From: an uncultured Actinomycetes bacterium
GTDB lineage: Bacteria > Actinomycetota > Actinomycetes > Actinomycetales > Microbacteriaceae
Direction of reading: 5' to 3'
Length of the DNA stretch: 64,000 nt
NCBI GenBank assembly: GCA_903920435.1
Contig: CAIXMB010000038.1
Coordinates: 13,563 to 77,562, forward strand
A program made the translations under genes and the position numbers. The number at the start of each line of letters is the position of its first letter. Position 1 is the stretch's first letter. The notes beneath the pieces were generated by a model. It was not told where the DNA came from and did no database searches. It was given only the letters and a program-made list of their open reading frames with translations. Positions 7,689-27,840 of the stretch are shown piece by piece.

Positions 7689-8156
7689 GTGAATCACATT
7701 CAGAAGAACGCCGTGCTGGGCATCGCCGCACTGCTCCTTCTTGCCGGATGCTCCGCACCCGCGCCGGGCGGCGGCTCGGGCAGCGGCGACTCGGGCAGCA
7801 GCAACTCCGGCAGCAGCAACTCCGACTCCGGGTCTGCCGATGACGGACTCGACGGGTTCGAGGGAGTGCCGGCGAACTTCCCCGACGACGTGCCCATCAT
7901 CAGCGGCGACGTCCCGGCCGGGATCGACCTCGGCACCGGCTGGTCGGTGGTCGTGCAGGTCGACGACCTCGACGCGGCGTTCGCCGAGGCATCCGGAAAA
8001 CTGACCACGGCAGGGTTCGAGGAGCTCCAGTCGAGCAGCTCGGACGAAGGGTCGTTCGGCGTGTTCCAGAACGACAAGTACCAGGTGCAGGTGACGGCGA
8101 CGGACACGGCGGACTACGGTCTCGCGGTGGCGTACGTCGTCGTTCTGCGCGGCTAG
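7689..8156 (+). CDS. Lipoprotein of unknown function with Gly/Ser linker
   Basis: Lipobox LAGC, GS-rich linker, PANFPDDVP motif; GTG with TACCCT 6 nt upstream. Confidence 0.8.
   Translation: MNHIQKNAVLGIAALLLLAGCSAPAPGGGSGSGDSGSSNSGSSNSDSGSADDGLDGFEGVPANFPDDVPIISGDVPAGIDLGTGWSVVVQVDDLDAAFAEASGKLTTAGFEELQSSSSDEGSFGVFQNDKYQVQVTATDTADYGLAVAYVVVLRG
7794..7823 (+). repeat. 15-bp perfect tandem repeat encoding GSSNS x2
   Basis: GGCAGCAGCAACTCC x2. Confidence 0.9.
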
Positions 8157-8173
8157 GCAAACAGGAGGCAATC

Positions 8174-8626
8174 ATGAACGCAAGGCGCATCACAGTCCCG
8201 CTGGCCATCGTGCTCGCACTCGCCATCACCCCGACGCTCTCCGGGTGCTTCGGCAACCCGATCGAGCAGATCGTCGAGGGTGCAACGGGCGGCGACGTGA
8301 GCCTGCCGGGCTCGAGCGTCCCCGACGACTTCCCGACCGACGTGCCGCTCTACGACGGCGAGGTCACCTTCGGGCTCGGCGTGGGCAACACCGACGGCAA
8401 GGCGTGGAACGTCACGATCCGGGTTCCCGGCATCGACGCGGCCGACGAGATCAAGTCGCAGCTCGAGGGCGCGGGCTTCGCCGCGAACGAGGCGGGCATC
8501 GGCGGCACCACCGAGGACGGCGCCACGCTGATCTACAGCAGCGACAAGTACTCGGTGCTCGTGGTCGTCACCAAGGACTCCGACGGCTTCGTCGCGAACT
8601 ACACGGTCAGCGAAGTCACTCAGTAG
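8174..8626 (+). CDS. Lipoprotein of unknown function, paralog of 7689..8156
   Basis: Lipobox LSGC, PDDFPTDVP motif; SD AGGAGG. Confidence 0.82.
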   Translation: MNARRITVPLAIVLALAITPTLSGCFGNPIEQIVEGATGGDVSLPGSSVPDDFPTDVPLYDGEVTFGLGVGNTDGKAWNVTIRVPGIDAADEIKSQLEGAGFAANEAGIGGTTEDGATLIYSSDKYSVLVVVTKDSDGFVANYTVSEVTQ

Positions 8627-8641
8627 CGGGCGGGCGCCGGG

Positions 8642-9919
8642 CTAGGCGAACAGCCCGGCGCCGACGTACGACCCCTGCGCGGCGCCCGGCGGCACAGCGA
8701 AGATCGCCGAACCGACGTGCTTGATGTACTCGTTGAGGGCGTCGCGCGCGAGGTTCTTCTGCACGGCGATGAACTGCTCGGGCGAGCGCTGGAACGAGAT
8801 GAAGAACAGCCCGGCGTCGAGGCGACCCAACTCGTCGTTGCCGTCGACGTAGTTGTAGCCGCGGCGCAGCAACTGGGCGCCGCCGTTGTTCGTCGGGTGG
8901 GCGAGGCGCATGTGGGCGTCCGCGGCGATGAGCTCCTGGCCCGCGGCGCCGGTGGCGGCGAAGTCGGGCGCGGCGAACTCCTTGCCGCCGGAGAGCGGCG
9001 CGCCCTCGCCCTTGCTGCGGCCGATGACGTTCTCCTGCTCCTGCAGCTGGGTGCGGTCCCACGCCTCGATGATCATGCGGATCTTGCGGGTGACGAGGTA
9101 GCTCCCGCCCGCGAGCCAGTCGGGCCCGTCGCCGGATGCCACCCACACCTGCTCCTCGACCGTGGAGGCCTCCTCCGCCTTCACATTGGCCGTGCCGTCC
9201 TTGAACCCGAACAGGTTGCGCGGCGTCACCTGCGAGGTCGACGTGGACGAGGTGCGCCCGAACCCGAGCTGCGACCAGCGGATCGAGGCCCGACCGAACG
9301 CGATGCGGCTGAGGTTGCGGATGGCGTGCACGGCGACCTGGGGGTCGTCGGCGCACGCCTGGATGCACAGGTCGCCACCGCCGGACTCCGGGCGCAGGGC
9401 ATCCCCGCTGAAGCGCGGGAGCCTGGTCAGCAGCGGTGGTCGGCGATCGGCGATGCCGAAGCGGTCGGCACCGGCATCCGTGCTGAAGAGGCTCGGGCCG
9501 AAGCCGAACGTGATCGTGAGTCCGCTCGCGGGCAGGCCGAGCGCCTCGCCCGTGTCGTCCGGGGGAGCGAGCGGCGAGCCGTCCACGGCGCCGCCCTCGG
9601 TGACCTCGAGGCCCTGGGTGAGGCGCGAGGCCGCGAACGTCCAGTCCTTGAGCAGCTCGATGAGGTCGTCGCGCGTGGCCGTCGACGAGAGGTCGAAGGC
9701 CGCGAAGTGCAGGCGATCCTGGGCGGGCGTCGTGATGCCCGCCTGGTGCGCGCCGAAGAACGGGTAGGTGACGTTCGTGCCGATGCCGTTGGCGGTGGTG
9801 AGGCCGATTGCGGCGACGGCGCCCCCACCCAGGGCGATGCCGGCGGCACCGGCCCCGACGAGTCCGAGGAGGCCGCGCCGCGACAAGCCGGTGGGCGGGG
9901 TCGCCTCAGGGTCGGTCAT
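8642..9919 (-). CDS. efeB: Dyp-type peroxidase / deferrochelatase EfeB
   Basis: Tat signal SRRGLLG; HQAGITTPAQ, FGFKDGTAN, AHMRLAH, LLRRGYNY. Confidence 0.95.
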   Translation of the reverse strand: MTDPEATPPTGLSRRGLLGLVGAGAAGIALGGGAVAAIGLTTANGIGTNVTYPFFGAHQAGITTPAQDRLHFAAFDLSSTATRDDLIELLKDWTFAASRLTQGLEVTEGGAVDGSPLAPPDDTGEALGLPASGLTITFGFGPSLFSTDAGADRFGIADRRPPLLTRLPRFSGDALRPESGGGDLCIQACADDPQVAVHAIRNLSRIAFGRASIRWSQLGFGRTSSTSTSQVTPRNLFGFKDGTANVKAEEASTVEEQVWVASGDGPDWLAGGSYLVTRKIRMIIEAWDRTQLQEQENVIGRSKGEGAPLSGGKEFAAPDFAATGAAGQELIAADAHMRLAHPTNNGGAQLLRRGYNYVDGNDELGRLDAGLFFISFQRSPEQFIAVQKNLARDALNEYIKHVGSAIFAVPPGAAQGSYVGAGLFA

Positions 9920-19231: not shown

Positions 19232-20439
19232 CCCGCAGGCGCACCGCCCTCACGGTCCGCTACCGGCTCACGCCGTGGTGGGTGAAGGTGATCGTCGTGT
19301 GCGTGCTCTCGCGCTTCGTGACGACGGCGATCATGCTCGCCTTCGCCTCCCGGCAGCAGCAGAACGCCTGGACCCTCGCGCACCCGAGCTACGGCGACTT
19401 CGCCTCGATCTGGGACGGCCACTGGTACTACATCATCGCCGTCGTCGGCTACCCGTCGCAGTTGCCCCTCACCCCCGACGGGCACGTGGGCGAGAGCGCC
19501 TGGGCGTTCATGCCCGCGTACCCCGCCGTGGTGCGACTGCTCATGCTCGTCTCGGGGCTCGACTTCGGCACGGTCGCCGTGTTCGTCTCCGTGGCGTGCG
19601 CACTCGGCGCGGCGCTGCTGTTCTACCGGCTCATCCACCTCGTGCTGCCGGGATCGGTGGCGCTGTTCTCGGTGGTGCTGTTCTGCGTCGCGCCGCTCTC
19701 GCCCATCCTCCAGGTCTCGTACGCGGAGTCGATGCACCTGCTGCTGCTCGTGGCCGCCCTGTACCTGCTGCTGCAACGCCGGTACTGGATGCTCCTGCCG
19801 GTCATCGCCGTCATGTCGCTCACGCGCCCGAGCGGGCTCGCGTTCGCGCTCACGCTCGGCCTGCACGTCGTCTACCGGTTCTGGCGCCGCCGCACCGAGG
19901 AGTTCCCCGTGGGCGAGCGCGTGGCATCCGTCATCGCGACGCTGTTCAGCGGGTTCATGGGAATCGCCTGGCTGCTCGTGGCGTGGGCGATCACGGGCGA
20001 TGCGAGCGCGTACACCGAGACGGAGCTGGCGTGGCGCTCCGCCTACATCGGCTACCAGGAGCTCGTGCCGTTCACGCCCTGGCTCAAGGCCGCGGGCTTC
20101 TGGGCGGGGCAGTGGGGCGTTCCCCTACCGCTGCTCGTCGTCATCCTCGCGCTCGTCGTCGCCGGGTTCTTCGCGGCCCTGTTCACGCGGTCGGCGAAGC
20201 GCCTCGGTGTCGATCTGCGGTTCTGGATCGCCTCCTACGCGCTCTACCTGCTCGCGGTGTTCTTCCCGCAGTCGAGCACGTTCCGGCTGCTCGTGCCGCT
20301 GTTCCCGGCCCTCGGCGCGCTCGCCCAGCCGCGCAGCGCCTGGTACCGCGTGGGGCTCGTGGTGGTCATGATCGTGGGTCAGATCGTCTGGGTGGACATC
20401 GCCTGGTGGGTGGACGGTTACGACTGGACGCCACCGTAG
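19213..20439 (+). CDS. GT-C fold multi-TM glycosyltransferase (PIG-V-like mannosyltransferase)
   Basis: WDGHWY, WAFMPAYP, YAES, TRPSG, QSSTFRL; ~10 TM; GTG start uncertain. Confidence 0.8.
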   Translation: MADGLVARRRTALTVRYRLTPWWVKVIVVCVLSRFVTTAIMLAFASRQQQNAWTLAHPSYGDFASIWDGHWYYIIAVVGYPSQLPLTPDGHVGESAWAFMPAYPAVVRLLMLVSGLDFGTVAVFVSVACALGAALLFYRLIHLVLPGSVALFSVVLFCVAPLSPILQVSYAESMHLLLLVAALYLLLQRRYWMLLPVIAVMSLTRPSGLAFALTLGLHVVYRFWRRRTEEFPVGERVASVIATLFSGFMGIAWLLVAWAITGDASAYTETELAWRSAYIGYQELVPFTPWLKAAGFWAGQWGVPLPLLVVILALVVAGFFAALFTRSAKRLGVDLRFWIASYALYLLAVFFPQSSTFRLLVPLFPALGALAQPRSAWYRVGLVVVMIVGQIVWVDIAWWVDGYDWTPP

Positions 20440-21755: not shown

Positions 21756-23306
21756 TCAGCGGCGGCGCAGACCCTTCAGGGCACGCAGCAGGAACAGCAT
21801 CACGCCCGACAGCCGCGACCACTCGGGTCCCGTGCGCGGCAGCGTGAGGATTCCGGTCGCCTCGGCCACGGTGCGCGCCTCCACGTAGCGCAGGATGCCC
21901 TCCGGGCCGTTGCGGCGGCCCAGCCCCGACTGCTTCATGCCGCCCTGCGGGGCGTCCACGCTGCCGAACGAGGCCCGGTAGCCCTCGTTGATGTTCACGC
22001 TGCCGGCCTCGAGCCGGTCGGCGACCCGGCGCGCACGCGAGATCGAGCCGCTGAACACCGAGGCGTTGAGCCCGAACTCCGAGGCGTTGGCGGCCGCGAT
22101 CGCCTCCTCCTCGCTGTCGACGACGGTGATCGCGACCACGGGCCCGAAGGTCTCGTGCGAGAAGCACTCCATCGCCTCGGTGACGCCCGTGAGCACCGTC
22201 GGCTCGAAGAAGAACGGCCCGAGGTCGGGCCGGGCGCGACCGCCGGCGAGCACCGTCGCCCCCTTCTTCACGGCGTCGTCGACGTGCTTCTGCACGCGCT
22301 CCAGCTGGGCGGCGGAGGTGAGCGAGCCGACATCCGTCGTGTAGTCGAGGGCCGGCCCCTGGCTGAGGGCCTGCGTGCGCGCCGCGAACTCGGCGGTGAA
22401 CTCGTCGGCGACCGACCGGGCGACGTAGATGCGCTCGATCGACACGCACAGCTGGCCCATCGACGAGAACACCGAGTAGACGGCGTTCGCCGCCGCGGTC
22501 GAGGGCTTCACGTCGTCGAGGACGATGAGCGGGTTCTTGCCGCCCAGCTCGAGCGAGGCGCCCGTGAGCGTCGCCATCGCGCGCTCGCCGACCCGGATGC
22601 CCGTGGCGCTCGACCCCGTGAACGCCACGTAGTCCGCCACGTCGACGACGGCGTTGCCGACCACGTTGCCGTCGCCCGCGACCACGGCCCACAGCGCGGC
22701 GGGGACTCCGGCCTCGATGAAGGCCCGACGGGAGGAGAGGATCGACAGCGCGCCCTGGTTGTCGGCCTTCTGCACGACGGCGTTGCCCGCGGCGAGGGCG
22801 GGGATCACGTCCATGATCGAGAGTGCGATGGGGTAGTTCCACGGCGTGATGATGCCGATGACGCCCTTGGGCTTGTAGCCCACGCGTGTGCGAACGACCG
22901 TCGGGATGCCCGACCGGCGGTAGCGCGTGCGCAGCACGCCGCGCGCAGAGAGCGCGTAGTACCGCGTGACGGAGGCGCTCTGGAAGACCTCCTCGAAGGC
23001 CTGCCCGCGCGTCTTACCCGACTCGGTCTGCAGGATGTCGAGCAGCTCCTCCCGCCGCTCGAGCAGGAGGTCGTGCGCCTTGAGCAGCACGGCGCGGCGA
23101 TGGGCGAAGCCCGCGGCCTGCCACGACTTCTGGGCGATGCGGGCGGCGGCCGCGGCATCCGTGACGTCCTGGGCGGAGGCGGTCGGCAGGTTGTGCAGTA
23201 CCTCGCCCGTGAAGGGTGCGATGACGGGCACGGTGTCGCCGGTCGTGGTCGTGAGATCGCCGACGAGGTCGGAGACGAGAGGCTGGGTGAGCGTCGATGC
23301 TGCCAT
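21756..23306 (-). CDS. Aldehyde dehydrogenase (succinate-semialdehyde dehydrogenase-like)
   Basis: ITPWNYP, FTGSSATG, LELGGKNP, GQLCVSIER, ETFGPV; start MAASTL at 23306 with TACGCT 6 nt upstream. Confidence 0.92.
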   Translation of the reverse strand: MAASTLTQPLVSDLVGDLTTTTGDTVPVIAPFTGEVLHNLPTASAQDVTDAAAAARIAQKSWQAAGFAHRRAVLLKAHDLLLERREELLDILQTESGKTRGQAFEEVFQSASVTRYYALSARGVLRTRYRRSGIPTVVRTRVGYKPKGVIGIITPWNYPIALSIMDVIPALAAGNAVVQKADNQGALSILSSRRAFIEAGVPAALWAVVAGDGNVVGNAVVDVADYVAFTGSSATGIRVGERAMATLTGASLELGGKNPLIVLDDVKPSTAAANAVYSVFSSMGQLCVSIERIYVARSVADEFTAEFAARTQALSQGPALDYTTDVGSLTSAAQLERVQKHVDDAVKKGATVLAGGRARPDLGPFFFEPTVLTGVTEAMECFSHETFGPVVAITVVDSEEEAIAAANASEFGLNASVFSGSISRARRVADRLEAGSVNINEGYRASFGSVDAPQGGMKQSGLGRRNGPEGILRYVEARTVAEATGILTLPRTGPEWSRLSGVMLFLLRALKGLRRR

Positions 23307-23336
23307 GGGGCAAGCGTACGCCGCTAGGCTCTGGCC

Positions 23337-24668
23337 ATGGAGAGCGTTCTCACCCGGAAGACCATCGCCACCTACGCTGTCGGATCGGTCGGGACGGGAG
23401 GCTTCGGCACGCTCCCCGGCCTCGTGCTCCTGGCGTACATGACCGACAACCTCGGCATCGCCGCCGCGGCGGCCGGGGCGCTCATCACCGTCGCGAAGGT
23501 GTGGGATGTGATCATCGATCCGGTGATCGGCGCGCGCAGCGACCGCAGCCTCGCGCTGCGCGGCACGCGCAGGCCCGCGATGATCCTCGGTGCGCTCGCC
23601 CTGCCGGTGTTCTTCGTGCTCACGTTCGCGGTCCCGGCCGGGATCGGCCCCGTCGCCTCCGGCGTGTGGGTGCTCATCGCCTTCCTCATCACGGCAACGG
23701 CGTTCTCGCTGTTCCAGGTGCCGTACATCGCGCTGCCCGCCGAGCTCACCGACCAGTACGACGCCCGCACGCGGCTCATCTCGGCACGCGTCGTCGTGCT
23801 CACGCTCGCGATCCTGCTGTTCGGGGCGGGGGCGCCCGAGATCCAGAAGGCGTTCGAGAACTCGTACACGGGCTACCTCGTGATGGCCATCGTGGCGGGC
23901 CTCGTCATCGGCGGCGGGCTGTTCATCGCCTCGTTCGTGGCGAAGCGCCGCGACCCGGTGCCGGCAGAGCCGTTCTCGATCGCCGACAACTACCGGGCGG
24001 GGTTCGCCGCGCTGCGCCGCAGCCAGCCCTTCCGCTCGCTGCTGGCCACCTTCCTGCTGCAGGGCCTCGCGACGGGGCTCATGCTGGCGGGGGCGGTCTA
24101 CCTCGCCAACCACGTGATCCCGGGCGGCAGCGTGACCTTCATCTTCATCTCGCTGGTGGCGCCGGCGATCCTCTTCGCGCCGGTGTGGGCGATCATCTCC
24201 CGGCGCATCGGCAAGGAGCGCACCTTCATCGTCGCGTCCGTGCTGTTCGGCATCGCCACCCTCGTGATGGCCCTGCTGCTCGTCTCGCCGGGGCAGTGGG
24301 TGTACGCCCCGATCGCCCTCGCCGGAATCGGCTACGCGGGCATGCAGTCGTTGCCCCTGTCGATGCTGCCCGACGTCATCTCGCACGACGCCGGTCGCCA
24401 CGGCCAGGGCGCTGCGGGCTCCTTCGGCGGGGTCTGGACCGCGGGCGAGACCACCGGCATCGCGCTCGGCACCACGGTGCTCGGCATCGTGCTGAGTGCA
24501 TCCGGCTACATCGAATCGGTGGGGGGAGTGGACGTGCAGCAACCCGCGTCTGCGGTGACGGGCATCGCGCTGAGCTTCAGCATCGTGCCCGCCGTGATCA
24601 TCGCCCTGTCGCTCGTGACGTTCTCGCGCTACCCGCTCCGGAAGGCAGACATCGATGCAGCTCGCTAA
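23337..24668 (+). CDS. MFS transporter, GPH/MFS_2 (MelB-like) family
   Basis: KVWDVIIDPVIGARSD, GTRRP, QVPYIALPAELT, SMLPDV; ~12 TM. Confidence 0.9.
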   Translation: MESVLTRKTIATYAVGSVGTGGFGTLPGLVLLAYMTDNLGIAAAAAGALITVAKVWDVIIDPVIGARSDRSLALRGTRRPAMILGALALPVFFVLTFAVPAGIGPVASGVWVLIAFLITATAFSLFQVPYIALPAELTDQYDARTRLISARVVVLTLAILLFGAGAPEIQKAFENSYTGYLVMAIVAGLVIGGGLFIASFVAKRRDPVPAEPFSIADNYRAGFAALRRSQPFRSLLATFLLQGLATGLMLAGAVYLANHVIPGGSVTFIFISLVAPAILFAPVWAIISRRIGKERTFIVASVLFGIATLVMALLLVSPGQWVYAPIALAGIGYAGMQSLPLSMLPDVISHDAGRHGQGAAGSFGGVWTAGETTGIALGTTVLGIVLSASGYIESVGGVDVQQPASAVTGIALSFSIVPAVIIALSLVTFSRYPLRKADIDAAR

Positions 24669-26127
24669 CGACCCCGCAGGCATCCTCGCGCGGCTCGCCG
24701 AGCTGCGCGCCGCGGACGCCCCGACCCACGGCGGGCACGTGCTCTCGTACGTGTACGACTCCGGCCTCGCGGAACTCGACGAGCTCGCCGCCGCCGCGAT
24801 CCGCGCCGTGCAGCCCGTCAACGGGCTCGACCCCACGACCTTCACGTCGGTGGCGGTCATGGAGGGCGAGGTGGTCGGGTTCGCCCGCGACCTGCTCGGC
24901 GGTGACTCCGACGTGGTCGGCAGCGTCACCACGGGCGGCACCGAGAGCTGCCTGCTCGCCGTCAAGACGGCGCGCGACCTGTGGAACGCTTCGAGTGCCT
25001 CAGCGACCGGGCGGCCCCGGCTCCTTGCGCCCGTGACGGTGCACGCCGCCTTCCAGAAGGCCGCGCACTACTTCGGGCTCGAGCTCGACCTCGTGCCCGT
25101 GGGCCAGGACGGCAGGGTGGACGCCGCCACGATCATCTCCCGGCTTGGCCCCGACGTCGCGCTCGTGGTCGTCTCCGCGCCGAGCTACCCGCACGCCGCC
25201 CTCGATCCGATCGCCAAGGTCGCCGCCGCGGCGCAGGCGGCGGGCATCCCGTGCCACGTCGACGCGTGCATCGGCGGCTGGGTGCTCCCGTTCTGGACTG
25301 GCCTGCCCGCGTGGGACTTCCGGGTGCCCGGCGTCACGAGCGTGAGCGCCGACCTGCACAAGTTCGGGTACGCGCCCAAGGGCGTCTCCGTGCTCCTCCA
25401 GCGCGGCCGCGACCGCCAGCGCGCCCAGTTCTTCGCGACCACGCGCTGGCCCGGCTACCCGGTGGTCAACCCGACGATGCTCGGCTCCAAGTCGGCGGGC
25501 GCGCTCGCCGCGGGCTGGGCGATCACGCACGCCCTCGGCCGCGACGGACTCGCCGCGCTCGCGCAGTCGTGCGAGCGCGCCACCAGCGCACTGATCGACG
25601 TCATCGGCTCGATCGAGGGCCTGCGCGTCGTGGGCGACCCGGTCGGGCCGCTCATCGCTGTCGCGACGGATGCCACGGCCGAAGCCTCGGCCCAGGTCGA
25701 CCCGCACCACTGGGCGGACCAGGTGCGCGCCCACGGCTGGCTCCTGCAGCTGCAGCCCGGGCTCGCCCAGTCGGATGGCACCGTGCTCCCGCACACCACG
25801 CACCTCACGATCACGCCCGTGACCGAGGGCGTACTGCCCGAGCTGAGCGCGGCCCTCGTCACCGCGGCCGACGAGGTGCGCGGCATCCCCGCCGTCTCGC
25901 CCGCCGACGTGCTCGGTGCGCTCCCGGCCGGCTTCGCCCTGCCGTCGGGGCCCATCGACTCGGAGACGGCCCTCGCGATCCTCGCGGGCATCGGCCTGGT
26001 CTCCACGGAGTCGGGCGGACTGCCGGACCGGATGGCGCCGTTCCTCGCCCTCGTGTCGGCGCTGCCCGCCCCGCTCACCGAACGGCTGCTCACCGAGCTC
26101 ATCGCGCGGGTCGTCGAGCCGCGCTAG
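24655..26127 (+). CDS. PLP-dependent group II enzyme, sphingosine-1-phosphate-lyase-like
   Basis: LSYVYDSG, TTGGTESCLLA, HAAFQKAAHYF, SAPSYPH, HVDACIGG, DFRVPGVTSVSADLHKFGYAPKG. Confidence 0.85.
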   Translation: MQLANDPAGILARLAELRAADAPTHGGHVLSYVYDSGLAELDELAAAAIRAVQPVNGLDPTTFTSVAVMEGEVVGFARDLLGGDSDVVGSVTTGGTESCLLAVKTARDLWNASSASATGRPRLLAPVTVHAAFQKAAHYFGLELDLVPVGQDGRVDAATIISRLGPDVALVVVSAPSYPHAALDPIAKVAAAAQAAGIPCHVDACIGGWVLPFWTGLPAWDFRVPGVTSVSADLHKFGYAPKGVSVLLQRGRDRQRAQFFATTRWPGYPVVNPTMLGSKSAGALAAGWAITHALGRDGLAALAQSCERATSALIDVIGSIEGLRVVGDPVGPLIAVATDATAEASAQVDPHHWADQVRAHGWLLQLQPGLAQSDGTVLPHTTHLTITPVTEGVLPELSAALVTAADEVRGIPAVSPADVLGALPAGFALPSGPIDSETALAILAGIGLVSTESGGLPDRMAPFLALVSALPAPLTERLLTELIARVVEPR

Positions 26128-27041
26128 CCGGTCTCGTGGGCGGCCTCGAACCGCTCGGCCTCCGACCGCAGCGCCTCGACCACCACGCGCACCGACGGTC
26201 GCTCTGCCCGGTCGGGCCGCAGGAGCGCGGAGATCAGACGTGACGCCCGCACGCCCTGGAGCGGCCGGGTGATGAGCCCGTTCTCGCGGTCGCGGGTCGT
26301 GAAGCGCGGCAGGATGCCGATGCCGTGGCCCGCCGCGACGAGCGACTCGACGATGCCGTTGTCTGCGAGCCGCTGCACGATGTGCGCGGGCGTACCGTTC
26401 GCGGCCTCGATGCCGCGCAGGATGCGGTCGAACGGCAGCCCCTCGGGGGTGCCGATCCACGTCTCGTCCACGAGGTCGGCGGGGGTGAGCGCGGCTTTCG
26501 CGCCGAGGCGGTGGTTCTCGGGCATCGCGATGTCGAGCGGCTCGCGCATCAGCGGAACGACCGTGAGCCCGCGCGCCGTCCACGCCGGCAGCACGCCGGG
26601 GGCGTCGGCGACCACCACGTCGAAGTCGGCGGTGAGGTCGGCAACGTCGGTGACGAACGAGTCGAGGTCGTGGGCGTGGAGGGTGAGGCCGGGCATCCCG
26701 TCGATCGCGGTCAGGAGCCCGGGCAGCAGCATCTGGCCACCCGAGGGGAAGACCGAGAGCGTCACCTCGCCGCGGGGCTGCGACCGGAAGTCCTCCCAGA
26801 GGGCCTCGGCGCGCTCGATCGCCGTGGCCACATCCGCCGCGGTACGGGCGAGGGCACGGCCCGCCGAGGTCAGGACGATACCGCGGCCCGCGCGCTCGGT
26901 GAGCGGCACGCCGGCCTCGCGCTCGAGGATCTTGAGCTGCTGGGAGACGGCGGAGGCCGTGCGTCGCGTGGCGCGCGCGACGGCGGTGATGCTGCCGCGG
27001 TCGGAGAGCTCGCGGAGGAGCTCGAGGCGCCGGATATCCAT
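26124..27041 (-). CDS. LysR family regulator
   Basis: HTH MDIRRLELL...ASAVSQQLKILERE; substrate-binding domain. Confidence 0.95.
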   Translation of the reverse strand: MDIRRLELLRELSDRGSITAVARATRRTASAVSQQLKILEREAGVPLTERAGRGIVLTSAGRALARTAADVATAIERAEALWEDFRSQPRGEVTLSVFPSGGQMLLPGLLTAIDGMPGLTLHAHDLDSFVTDVADLTADFDVVVADAPGVLPAWTARGLTVVPLMREPLDIAMPENHRLGAKAALTPADLVDETWIGTPEGLPFDRILRGIEAANGTPAHIVQRLADNGIVESLVAAGHGIGILPRFTTRDRENGLITRPLQGVRASRLISALLRPDRAERPSVRVVVEALRSEAERFEAAHETG

Positions 27042-27113
27042 GTAGACAGACTACACAGTCACATAAGTTAAGGGTTCTTGTTCTACATGGTTGACGACGG
27101 CGACAATTGAGCT

Positions 27114-27224
27114 ATGACACTCCAGCTCGTAGTCCTGACGGCCATGGCCGTCGCGGGAATCGCCGCCACCGTCACCGCAGTCGTGCGTGATGGTTACGGG
27201 CGCGTCCCCACCCGCCGCTTCTAA
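27114..27224 (+). CDS. 36-aa single-TM small protein (absent from ORF track)
   Basis: MTLQLVVLTAMAVAGIAATVTAVVRDGYGRVPTRRF*; GACAAT 6 nt upstream of ATG; divergent from LysR. Confidence 0.7.
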   Translation: MTLQLVVLTAMAVAGIAATVTAVVRDGYGRVPTRRF

Positions 27225-27279
27225 CGAAGCCAGCCGTCCGCGCTCTTGAAGCGCGCGGCCCACGCCACGCCCCGCTCGG

Positions 27280-27507
27280 TTACGAGTCGGGGCGTTTTGC
27301 GTTCCGGCGGGCGACCAGCGTCGCGGCGCCCGAGGCGATCTGCGCGGCCGCGGCGATGAAGGCGACCGCGATGAGGGCGGTGAGGCGGAGCGGGTCGGAG
27401 CGCAGGGTCGGCTCGACGATCGCGACGACCATCACGCCGAGGAAGATCGCGCCGAGCACGAATGATCGTCGCGGGGAGCTCGACTCCCACCAGCGCAGTT
27501 TCGCCAC
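27280..27507 (-). CDS. Small 2-TM membrane protein
   Basis: Two hydrophobic helices; TACCGT 5 nt upstream of GTG. Confidence 0.65.
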   Translation of the reverse strand: MAKLRWWESSSPRRSFVLGAIFLGVMVVAIVEPTLRSDPLRLTALIAVAFIAAAAQIASGAATLVARRNAKRPDS

Positions 27508-27528
27508 GCCCCCACGGTAGTGCCTCGA

Positions 27529-27831
27529 CTACGGCATCTGGCGCAGGCGCGGGTCGGATTCTTGGGCGAGCGGCGCCCGCTCGGGCGACTGCCAGACGCC
27601 CCTGCGGCGCATGACGATGGTGCCGATGGCCGCCGCCCCGAGGGCGAGCGCAAGCGCGCCGCCGATCACCGAGACCCAGATCGCGCGCGTGAGGCCGCCC
27701 GCGAACGCCGGATCGAGCCACGGCAAGATCGCACTCACCACCCAGAGCCCGGCCAGGCCGAGGTAGACGAACGGGTAGCGCACTTCGAAGACGCGCTGCC
27801 AACGACTGCGGGGTGCTCTCGTCGTATCCAT
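27529..27831 (-). CDS. Small 2-TM membrane protein
   Basis: Two TM helices; TAGCGT 6 nt upstream of ATG. Confidence 0.7.
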   Translation of the reverse strand: MDTTRAPRSRWQRVFEVRYPFVYLGLAGLWVVSAILPWLDPAFAGGLTRAIWVSVIGGALALALGAAAIGTIVMRRRGVWQSPERAPLAQESDPRLRQMP

Positions 27832-27840
27832 CCTTCGACG

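What the first reader, a model, noticed from the sequence alone, without database searches (positions are those of the whole stretch)
21756..26127. Candidate sphingoid-base-phosphate uptake and catabolism module
Seen: an aldehyde dehydrogenase divergent across 30 bp from a GPH/MFS_2 transporter, which overlaps a PLP enzyme. The PLP enzyme follows S1P-lyase motifs (xYVY, GGTES, HAAFxKAAHYF, SAPxYPH, HVDACxGG, DFRVxGVTSxSADxHKxGYAPKG, GSK in place of GSR). Known: S1P lyase (SGPL1/Dpl1; bacterial examples in Symbiobacterium, Legionella, Burkholderia) yields a fatty aldehyde plus phosphoethanolamine, and the animal lysolipid/S1P transporters Mfsd2a/b are MFS_2 family. Inference: import of sphingoid phosphates, cleavage, then aldehyde oxidation. 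The alternative (glutamate decarboxylase plus SSADH) lacks a GABA transaminase in this window.
Basis: partly seen in the sequence, partly recalled or inferred. Interest (0 to 1): 0.7.

Follow-up and report, generated by a model that had tools for sequence, protein, structure and literature searches.

The report
Transporter-coupled sphingosine-phosphate-lyase-like enzyme cassette
A soil or freshwater actinobacterium carries a tightly coupled importer and enzyme pair, conserved across Actinobacteria, whose enzyme has the fold of sphingosine-1-phosphate lyase but an acidic substrate pocket, so it probably cleaves an unidentified imported amino alcohol, and the neighbouring aldehyde dehydrogenase is not a fixed partner.

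Summary
The PLP enzyme belongs to the sphingosine-1-phosphate lyase (SPL) superfamily, not to glutamate decarboxylases. The best solved relative is StSPL (E 1.7e-65; model TM 0.81/0.87).

The proposed three-gene sphingoid-phosphate module does not hold up.
- **Conserved unit:** it is only the MFS_2 transporter plus the lyase-like gene. They are adjacent in 101 of 102 loci, and in 8 of 8 relatives at 41-47% identity from other families.
- **Aldehyde dehydrogenase:** it matches a GabD2-type succinic-semialdehyde dehydrogenase model. It occupies the same chromosomal slot, often with the LysR gene, in 10 of 10 relatives that lack the cassette. It never accompanies the cassette outside that slot (0 of 25).
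- **Enzyme clade:** it lies in a separate, well-supported clade (support 0.994). The phosphate-binding His129 of StSPL is an invariant Asp in this clade.
- **Transporter:** it has an invariant Glu where MelB, MFSD2A and MFSD2B have the TM11 lysine, which binds the lipid phosphate in MFSD2A and MFSD2B.

Most likely this is a self-contained cassette that imports and cleaves an amino alcohol with a non-anionic head group. The substrate is unknown. I class it as a new variant of a known kind, of moderate interest.

The parts
23337..24668 (+). MFS_2 (GPH-family) secondary transporter, 443 aa. It is the first gene of the conserved two-gene cassette. It has the cation-site motif K54-VWD57-VIID61 and an invariant TM11 motif W-T-A-G370-E371-T.
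   Evidence: PF13347 scores 266 bits. TIGR00792 gph scores 158 bits, below its cut-off of 231. The best solved relatives are MFSD2A at 1.4e-20 and MelB at 1.9e-7. It lies immediately upstream of the lyase-like gene in 101 of 102 loci and in 8 of 8 distant relatives. E371 is conserved in 111 of 111 cassette transporters.
24655..26127 (+). SPL-superfamily PLP enzyme of the 'Asp-type' clade, 490 aa, cytoplasmic. It is the second gene of the cassette and overlaps the transporter gene by 14 nt. The PLP lysine is K236. Pocket residues are Y32, Y34, N56, D59, K242, Y268, N272 and S278.
   Evidence: StSPL E 1.7e-65. AF2 model pLDDT 91.5. Foldseek gives StSPL TM 0.81/0.87 over about 500 columns, against 0.68-0.74 for GADs. 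The Asp-type clade has support 0.994.
21756..23306 (-). NAD(P)-dependent aldehyde dehydrogenase, GabD2-type succinic-semialdehyde dehydrogenase, 516 aa. It is divergent from the cassette. It is a resident gene of this chromosomal slot, not an obligate cassette partner.
   Evidence: NF006916 scores 683.5 bits against a cut-off of 521. The best solved structure is an SSADH, 8of1, at 7.5e-84. It occupies the same slot in 10 of 10 cassette-free relatives. It is adjacent in 54 of 98 cassette loci, all of them in the slot.
23307..23336 (.). 30-bp divergent spacer between the ALDH and transporter start codons.
   Evidence: Read directly. In relatives the spacer is roughly 30-190 bp, judged from tblastn boundaries.
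26124..27041 (-). LysR-family regulator, 305 aa. It converges on the lyase-like gene with a 4-nt overlap. In cassette-free relatives it lies directly upstream of the ALDH on the same strand.
   Evidence: PF00126 and PF03466. The order ALDH(-) LysR(-) is seen in 6 of 10 cassette-free relatives. LysR is present in only 15 of 91 cassette loci.

Best explanation
The functional unit is a two-gene, translationally coupled cassette: an MFS_2/GPH-type secondary transporter followed by a cytoplasmic PLP enzyme of the S1P-lyase superfamily.

Proposed mechanism (inferred): the transporter imports a beta-hydroxy primary amine, an amino alcohol built like a sphingoid base. Its group next to the amine carbon is neutral or cationic rather than a phosphate. 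The enzyme forms an external aldimine on K236. It then cleaves the C2-C3 bond by the retro-aldol route used by S1P lyases. The products are an aldehyde and a small amine, and both enter general metabolism.

In this genome the cassette lies between a resident GabD2-type aldehyde dehydrogenase and that gene's LysR neighbour. The ALDH may oxidise the aldehyde opportunistically, but it is not part of the conserved system.

Shown here: gene structure, family and fold assignment, conservation of the pair, independence of the ALDH, and the pocket and TM11 substitutions. Inferred: direction of transport, retro-aldol chemistry, and the nature of the substrate.
For: **The pair is a unit**
- Transporter and enzyme overlap by 14 nt.
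- They are adjacent and co-oriented in 101 of 102 loci from Microbacteriaceae, Promicromonosporaceae and Micrococcaceae.
- They are also adjacent in 8 of 8 relatives from other families and another class. There the enzyme is 41-47% identical and the transporter 40-45%.
- No other gene recurs beside the pair in those lineages.

**SPL superfamily**
- Sequence, model and fold all point to SPL.
- All PLP ligands are kept: G95/T96, H130, D203, H235, K236, S278.
- The SPL-specific head-group ligands Y105, N126 and K317 are kept as Y34, N56 and K242.
- The fold-type-I arginine kept by all 8 GADs is His383. This matches canonical SPLs and argues against an ordinary amino-acid decarboxylase.

**Not a phosphate substrate**
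- StSPL His129 is an Asp in all 67 clade representatives. Validated enzymes have His, Gln or Arg there.
- Further clade-specific changes are Y268 for Gly343 and N272 for Ser347.
- In the transporter, the TM11 Lys of MelB (K377), MFSD2A (K436) and MFSD2B (K423) binds the LPC or S1P phosphate. It aligns to G370-E371, and E371 is invariant in 111 of 111.
- The SPL scaffold can cleave an unphosphorylated base. Burkholderia S1PL2021 keeps about 8% activity on sphingosine.

**ALDH independence**
Against: - No substrate has been identified, and nothing here tests activity.
- His129 is not strictly required for S1P cleavage, because the Burkholderia enzymes have Gln or Arg there. The Asp argument is therefore suggestive, not decisive.
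- The TM11 alignment to MFSD2A has low posterior probability.
- A self-contained pair of transporter plus decarboxylase-fold enzyme with no downstream genes is also the classic layout of precursor/product-exchange decarboxylation systems.
- More distant members of the same Asp-type clade sit inside Liv/HAAT-type ABC importer operons. That points to a small water-soluble compound rather than a lipid.
- GADs also carry an Asp at the position aligned with D59.
- ALDH and cassette co-occur more often than chance within the family: 17 genomes have both, 12 the cassette only, 10 the ALDH only and 82 neither. A looser functional link cannot be excluded, although this count is confounded by shared descent.
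Confidence: 0.5

Rival explanations
1. The transporter imports sphingoid-base phosphates (S1P, dihydro-S1P or phytosphingosine-1-P). The enzyme is a true S1P lyase that yields a fatty aldehyde plus phosphoethanolamine. The divergent ALDH oxidises the fatty aldehyde.
For: - S1P lyases are the closest solved relatives in sequence and fold.
- Y105, N126, K317 and S353 of the phosphate site are conserved.
- Validated Burkholderia S1P lyases also lack His129 and have short N-termini.
- Among solved structures the transporter scores best against MFSD2A.
- The ALDH is adjacent in about half of the cassette loci.
Against: - An Asp at the His129 position is invariant in a clade separate from all validated lyases.
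- The transporter lacks the phosphate-binding TM11 Lys and has an invariant Glu next to that position.
- The ALDH is a GabD2-type SSADH by a curated equivalog model. It is a resident of the slot with or without the cassette, and is absent from all 25 cassette copies elsewhere.
- No phosphoethanolamine or ethanolamine gene, kinase, ceramidase or fatty-acid activation gene recurs beside the pair in more than 130 loci.
- Related clade members are embedded in Liv-type ABC importers for small solutes.
Confidence: 0.12
2. The enzyme is an amino-acid decarboxylase and the transporter exchanges the amino acid for its amine product. This would be a self-contained system for generating proton-motive force or for pH homeostasis, like gadBC, hdcAP or aspT-aspD.
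For: - The two-gene, translationally coupled layout has no conserved downstream genes in any lineage.
- The N-x-L-D motif with Asp59 matches the N-x-I-D of glutamate decarboxylases.
- In the Liv-operon relatives an EamA-type transporter lies next to the operon. That family includes known exporters (my own knowledge).
Against: - The enzyme is nested well inside the SPL-like superfamily, far from GADs, on a branch of length 2.3.
- It fails the GAD model (94 against 380 bits) and the MfnA model (148 against 299 bits). It scores lower on MfnA than the canonical-type and Asn/Ser-type SPL-like representatives scanned.
- The arginine conserved in all 8 GADs is a His, as in SPLs.
- The SPL-specific Lys six residues after the PLP lysine is kept, whereas GADs lack it.
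- To my knowledge, no GPH-family precursor/product exchanger is known.
Confidence: 0.2
3. The cassette is an ancestral four-gene island, ALDH - transporter - lyase - LysR, that has been lost piecemeal. On this view the ALDH and LysR really are functional partners wherever they are present.
For: - All combinations occur in the same slot between the tat-like gene and mrp.
- Co-occurrence within the family is above chance expectation: 17 genomes with both, against about 6.5 expected.
- In one genome LysR is divergent from the transporter (L049).
- The divergent spacer is short.
Against: - The cassette occurs without the ALDH in 44 of 98 loci and in every locus outside the slot.
- The ALDH, with or without LysR, occurs without the cassette in 10 genomes, including one of the same genus.
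- LysR is present in only 15 of 91 cassette loci.
- The co-occurrence count is confounded by shared ancestry.
Confidence: 0.1

Closest known systems
Sphingosine-1-phosphate lyase (EC 4.1.2.27): StSPL of Symbiobacterium thermophilum (3MAD/3MAU), human SGPL1 (4Q6R), yeast Dpl1p (3MC6)
   Same: Fold over the full length (TM 0.81/0.87). All PLP ligands. The head-group residues Y105, N126, K317 and S353. His in place of the decarboxylase arginine. About 32-33% identity to StSPL in the structural alignment.
   Different: - It lies in a separate clade (support 0.994).
- His129 is Asp59, Gly343 is Tyr268, Ser347 is Asn272, and Ala103 is Tyr32.
- It lacks roughly the first 70 residues of StSPL.
- The C-terminal domain is alignable by fold but not by sequence search beyond residue 364.
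- It is always encoded behind an MFS_2 transporter.
Burkholderia pseudomallei S1PL2021 and S1PL2025 (5K1R)
   Same: Short, soluble bacterial SPL-family enzymes without the canonical His129 (Gln82 and Arg82). S1PL2021 shows that the scaffold can cleave unphosphorylated sphingosine at about 8% of its rate on S1P (PMC5234717).
   Different: The Burkholderia enzymes have a neutral or basic residue at that position and are proven S1P lyases. The window enzyme has an acidic residue and is uncharacterised.
MFSD2A / MFSD2B lysolipid and S1P transporters, and MelB (GPH family, TC 2.A.2)
   Same: MFS_2 fold family. The TM2 motif K/R-x-W-D-x-x-x-D is present, with K54, D57 and D61 against R90, D93 and D97 of MFSD2A.
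   Different: The TM11 lysine (MelB K377, MFSD2A K436, MFSD2B K423) binds the lipid phosphate in MFSD2A and MFSD2B. It is absent here, and an invariant Glu371 stands beside that position. Identity is low. NCBIfam places the protein only in the generic GPH family, below the cut-off.
GabD2-type succinic-semialdehyde dehydrogenase (NCBIfam NF006916; Mycobacterium tuberculosis Rv1731 type)
   Same: The ALDH passes the equivalog cut-off (683 against 521 bits). It lies in a housekeeping region (citrate synthase, dapD, dapE, mrp). A true GabT exists elsewhere in the genome.
   Different: Its substrate range is untested. In this genome it is divergent from the cassette across 30 bp.
Glutamate decarboxylase with antiporter (gadB-gadC) and similar decarboxylase-exchanger pairs
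   Same: Two-gene layout of transporter plus group II fold PLP enzyme. An Asp at the position aligned with D59.
   Different: The enzyme fails the GAD model, lacks the conserved Arg, and keeps SPL-specific residues. The transporter is from the GPH family, not the APC family.

Membership tests
S1P lyase (EC 4.1.2.27) | Fold-type I, group II-decarboxylase-like fold with the SPL domain arrangement | tested here: met
   AF2 model pLDDT 91.5. The top 21 Foldseek hits are all SPLs, with StSPL at TM 0.81/0.87.
S1P lyase (EC 4.1.2.27) | PLP-binding set: Lys311, His310, Asp274, His201, Cys276, Gly168/Thr169, Ser353* | tested here: met
   These map to K236, H235, D203, H130, C205, G95/T96 and S278.
S1P lyase (EC 4.1.2.27) | Substrate-phosphate pocket: Tyr105, Asn126*, Lys317, and His129* (Gln or Arg in the Burkholderia enzymes) | tested here: not met
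   Y34, N56 and K242 are present. His129 is Asp59, in all 67 representatives of the clade. No validated enzyme in Suppl. Table S2 of PMC5234717 has an acidic residue there.
S1P lyase (EC 4.1.2.27) | Groups with experimentally validated S1P lyases in a phylogeny | tested here: not met
   In the GAD-rooted tree StSPL falls in a clade of 23 (support 0.91). The window enzyme falls in a separate clade of 68 (support 0.994).
S1P lyase (EC 4.1.2.27) | Cleaves S1P or dihydro-S1P to a fatty aldehyde plus phosphoethanolamine | not testable with these tools
   This needs an enzyme assay.
Glutamate decarboxylase (TIGR01788) | Score over the curated cut-off; the conserved C-terminal-domain Arg | tested here: not met
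   94 bits against a cut-off of 380.4. The Arg is present in 8 of 8 GADs but is His383 here. GADs form the outgroup on a branch of length 2.3.
Tyrosine/aspartate decarboxylase MfnA (TIGR03812) | Score over the curated cut-off | tested here: not met
   147.8 bits against a cut-off of 299.4. This is lower than the canonical-type and Asn/Ser-type SPL-like representatives scanned, which score 197-268.
MFS_2 / GPH transporter family | Pfam PF13347 over the gathering score; TM2 Asp pair | tested here: met
   266 bits against 27. The WD57-VIID61 motif is present. The subfamily model TIGR00792 is below its cut-off, at 158 against 231.
MFSD2-type lysolipid / S1P transporter | TM11 lysine that binds the phosphate head group (MFSD2A K436, MFSD2B K423) | tested here: not met
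   It aligns to G370-E371, in a low-confidence part of the alignment. There is no Lys or Arg in the 15-residue segment in 110 of 112 cassette transporters, and the Glu is invariant.
GabD2-type succinic-semialdehyde dehydrogenase (NF006916) | Score over the curated equivalog cut-off | tested here: met
   683.5 bits against 521, covering residues 3-515 of 516. Substrate preference itself is not testable here.
LysR-type regulator | HTH_1 plus the LysR substrate-binding domain | tested here: met
   PF00126 at 56 bits and PF03466 at 103.5 bits.

The most novel reading that the evidence does not exclude
The cassette is a kinase-independent route for free amino alcohols. An MFSD2-related importer has had its phosphate-binding lysine replaced by a glutamate. 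An SPL-clade lyase has had its phosphate-binding histidine replaced by an aspartate. Together they take up and directly cleave unphosphorylated sphingoid bases, or shorter 2-amino-1,3-diols. The products are an aldehyde plus ethanolamine or a related amine. This would be a previously undescribed bacterial way of consuming sphingolipid breakdown products, and it would be widespread in soil Actinobacteria, apparently including Streptomyces-like genomes.
Probability: 0.2. Interest if true: 0.75.

Novelty: new variant of a known kind. Interest (0 to 1): 0.48.

Why it matters
S1P lyases are known mainly from eukaryotes and from a few bacteria, where they act on host lipids. This work shows a large uncharacterised sister clade, at least 67 clusters at 50% identity. 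In Actinobacteria it is almost always fused operonically to a dedicated GPH-family transporter.

Both partners carry acidic substitutions where their lipid-phosphate-handling relatives carry basic phosphate ligands. That gives a concrete, testable hypothesis about a new substrate class for the SPL scaffold and for MFSD2-like transporters.

It also warns against the automatic annotation 'sphinganine-1-phosphate aldolase' that some databases already give these proteins. It further shows that the neighbouring ALDH should not be read as part of a sphingolipid pathway.

Tried and rejected
- **Broad alignment for locus search:** The search for related loci with a 28-sequence alignment failed because no stretch was conserved enough. 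A narrower alignment worked but returned only relatives of 60% identity or more.
- **The look-up of encoding contigs on distant clade members:** this mostly gave contigs of 2-4 kb with no context. One longer contig showed only a TetR gene and an M3 peptidase.
- **Neutral ceramidase (PF04734) in the own genome:** uninformative, because the control genomes also gave nothing.
- **DAGK_cat kinases:** present in three copies, but the family rang in 13 of 14 control genomes, so it is not diagnostic.
- **MfnA model scores:** they do not separate lyase-type from other SPL-like clades.
- **Adjacency to the histidine-utilisation genes hutH, hutU, hutI and hutG:** seen in L040, L052, L054 and L078 and considered as a substrate clue. 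I rejected it because it is confined to two or three related genera.
- **Glycoside hydrolases (GH3, GH15) near some distant copies:** they do not recur.
- **Promoter and terminator scan of the region:** nothing useful.
- **Predicted model coordinates:** not available in the Python box, so pocket shape and hydrophobicity could not be measured.

Full report
**1. What is in the sequence**

The window is about 70% G+C. By its closest protein relatives it comes from a member of the Microbacteriaceae (Rhodoglobus, Salinibacterium or Leifsonia group).

The finding's three genes are real:
- An aldehyde dehydrogenase at 21756-23306 (-), 516 aa.
- A 30-bp spacer.
- An MFS_2 transporter at 23337-24668 (+), 443 aa.
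- A PLP enzyme at 24655-26127 (+), 490 aa, overlapping the transporter gene by 14 nt.

A LysR regulator at 26124-27041 (-) converges on the PLP gene.

The flanks are housekeeping genes. On one side are citrate synthase, dapD, dapE, a conserved membrane protein, an O-methyltransferase and a small tat-like protein. On the other side are mrp/apbC, DUF1003 and an MgtE_N-CBS protein.

**2. What the three proteins are**

*The PLP enzyme.*
- It is far closer to S1P lyases than to decarboxylases. StSPL scores E 1.7e-65 and human SGPL1 2e-59, against MfnA 2e-20 and GadB 1e-16.
- It passes no NCBIfam cut-off.
- An AlphaFold model built on a 34-sequence alignment is confident (pLDDT 91.5, pTM 0.91).
- The model superposes on StSPL over about 500 columns (TM 0.81/0.87). 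Other SPLs follow, and GADs reach only TM 0.68-0.74.

*The transporter.* It is a clear MFS_2 member. It is below cut-off for every named GPH subfamily.

*The ALDH.* It passes the equivalog model for GabD2-type succinic-semialdehyde dehydrogenase, 683.5 bits against a cut-off of 521.

*The rest of the genome.*
- No glutamate decarboxylase.
- A true GABA transaminase on another contig.
- 14 other ALDH paralogues, all under 37% identity to this one.

**3. The conserved unit is transporter plus enzyme**

I compared 28 loci from the family and 80 loci from named genomes.
- The transporter lies immediately upstream on the same strand in 101 of 102 loci with enough upstream sequence.
- The pair also occurs in Isoptericola, Promicromonospora, Xylanimonas, Arthrobacter and Paeniglutamicibacter.
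- In a sample of 400 genomes of the phylum, all 8 fetched relatives at 41-47% identity keep a co-oriented transporter of 40-45% identity directly upstream. These come from three other families of the class and from another class.
- No other gene recurs beside the pair in those lineages.
- The pair is accessory. It is present in 29 of 121 genomes of the family and absent from another species of the same genus.

**4. The ALDH is a resident of the slot, not a partner**

- The ALDH is divergent and adjacent in 54 of 98 cassette loci.
- All 54 are copies lying in the dapE ... mrp slot.
- None of the 25 copies elsewhere has it.
- I fetched the ALDH loci of ten genomes that have the ALDH orthologue but lack the cassette. 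All ten show the ALDH in the same slot, between the tat-like gene and mrp.
- Six of those ten have the LysR gene directly upstream of the ALDH on the same strand. One of them is the species of the same genus.
- One further genome has the cassette elsewhere and keeps the ALDH in the slot (L150).

In the window the cassette therefore lies between an ALDH-LysR pair that exists independently of it.

Within the family the two do co-occur more than chance would give. Seventeen genomes have both, 12 the cassette only, 10 the ALDH only and 82 neither. That count is confounded by shared descent. I therefore keep a looser 'island' model as a minor rival.

**5. The enzyme is not in the clade of validated S1P lyases, and its pocket is changed**

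I used the StSPL residue list from a review and Suppl. Table S2 of the Burkholderia paper.
- PLP ligands: all conserved.
- Head-group ligands: Tyr105, Asn126, Lys317 and Ser353 are conserved (Y34, N56, K242, S278).
- His129: this is Asp59.

Among 150 representatives at 50% clustering, the residue at this position sorts the superfamily:
- His: StSPL and four long-N-terminus representatives that cluster with it. Yeast Dpl1p also has His.
- Tyr or Phe: a sister group.
- Asn or Ser: many lineages.
- Asp: 67 sequences with short N-termini.

Two more positions are specific to the Asp group: Tyr268 for Gly343, and Asn272 for Ser347.

In a tree rooted with eight actinobacterial GADs, the SPL-like proteins are monophyletic. 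StSPL falls in a clade of 23 (support 0.91). The Asp group forms a separate clade of 68 (support 0.994) that contains all nine transporter-linked sequences.

Two caveats:
- The active Burkholderia lyases have Gln or Arg at this position, so His is not indispensable.
- GADs also have an Asp at the aligned position (N-x-I-D). On this tree that must be convergent.

**6. Lyase or decarboxylase?**

All eight GADs keep an arginine at the position aligned with His383. I take this to be the carboxylate-binding arginine of fold-type I enzymes, but that assignment rests on my own knowledge.
- It is His in 61 of 67 Asp-type sequences.
- It is His in 8 of 12 canonical-type sequences.
- It is His in 43 of 49 Asn/Ser-type sequences.

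The Lys six residues after the PLP lysine (StSPL Lys317) is kept, whereas GADs lack it. These shared derived characters favour SPL-like chemistry on a substrate without an alpha-carboxylate. They are not proof.

**7. The transporter shows a parallel change**

Among solved structures it scores best against MFSD2A, 1.4e-20 against 1.9e-7 for MelB.

The TM11 lysine shared by MelB (K377), MFSD2A (K436) and MFSD2B (K423) binds the LPC or S1P phosphate. Mutating it abolishes or reduces transport. In the window transporter it aligns to Gly370-Glu371 (in a low-confidence stretch).

The motif W-T-A-G-E-T is essentially invariant in the cassette transporters. The Glu is present in 111 of 111, and only 2 of 112 have any Lys or Arg in the 15-residue segment.

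Enzyme and transporter have thus both replaced a basic phosphate ligand with an acidic residue. This is the main reason I think the head group is not an anionic phosphate.

**8. Hints about the substrate**

- More distant Asp-type enzymes (about 39% identity) sit inside Liv/HAAT-type ABC importer operons, with a binding protein, two permeases and an ATPase. An EamA transporter gene lies beside the operon. That points to a water-soluble amino compound for that branch.
- Burkholderia S1PL2021 cleaves unphosphorylated sphingosine at about 8% of its S1P rate. A head-group switch on this scaffold is therefore plausible.
- I could not decide between a lipid-like and a short-chain amino alcohol.

**9. 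Verdict**

My odds:
- Best explanation (0.5): a self-contained import-and-cleave cassette for an amino alcohol with a non-phosphate head group.
- Rival (0.2): a decarboxylase-exchanger pair.
- Rival (0.1): an ancestral four-gene island.

My literature searches found no characterisation of this actinobacterial clade. Some databases already label its members 'sphinganine-1-phosphate aldolase', which the pocket evidence does not support.

I reached mine before seeing it, and I tested the claims independently here.

Noticed in passing
window 26124-27041 (-) and 27042-27840: The LysR gene overlaps the stop of the lyase-like gene by 4 nt, in convergent orientation. In cassette-free relatives the same LysR lies directly upstream of the ALDH on the same strand. 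An earlier first-stage note (e1-5272603) points to inverted repeats and a hidden 36-aa ORF upstream of it. I did not examine these.
   Followed up: partly
L042, L044, L048, L093, L098, L107 (about 1.5 kb downstream of the lyase-like gene): Several Pseudolysinimonas-type genomes carry a second MFS_2 paralogue, about 51-53% identical to the cassette transporter, just after the lyase-like gene.
   Followed up: no
L162-L164 (e.g. L164:3558-11804): Asp-type SPL-like genes at about 39% identity sit inside a Liv/HAAT ABC importer operon (Peripla_BP_6, two BPD_transp_2 permeases, an ABC ATPase), with an EamA transporter gene beside it.
   Followed up: partly
L040, L052, L054, L078: In two or three genera, including Mycetocola, the cassette lies directly beside histidine-utilisation (hut) genes: hutH, hutU, hutI and a HutG-like gene in L078, a subset in the others. 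An MMPL/RND-type membrane protein lies beside it as well.
   Followed up: partly
L108 (Microbacterium humicola), 7992-9446: This is the only locus of 102 in which the lyase-like gene has no MFS_2 gene directly upstream.
   Followed up: no
L152, L153, L154, L156, L158, L159 (transporter TM2 motif): In the six distant orthologues from three other families of the class (large, probably Streptomyces-like genomes among them), the second Asp of the cation motif is Asn (W-D-x-x-x-N-P). This suggests a different ion coupling. The published MFSD2B work shows that changes at this Asp pair (MFSD2B G91 and D95) alter ion coupling.
   Followed up: no
window 19275-20439 (+): A 388-aa predicted membrane protein with no Pfam match. 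It is syntenic between dapE and the O-methyltransferase across most of the family, at 35-64% identity.
   Followed up: no
window 21756-24965 (-): A 1069-aa open frame in the mechanical ORF list is the ALDH frame running open through the antisense strand of the transporter gene. It is a high-GC artefact, not a gene.
   Followed up: yes
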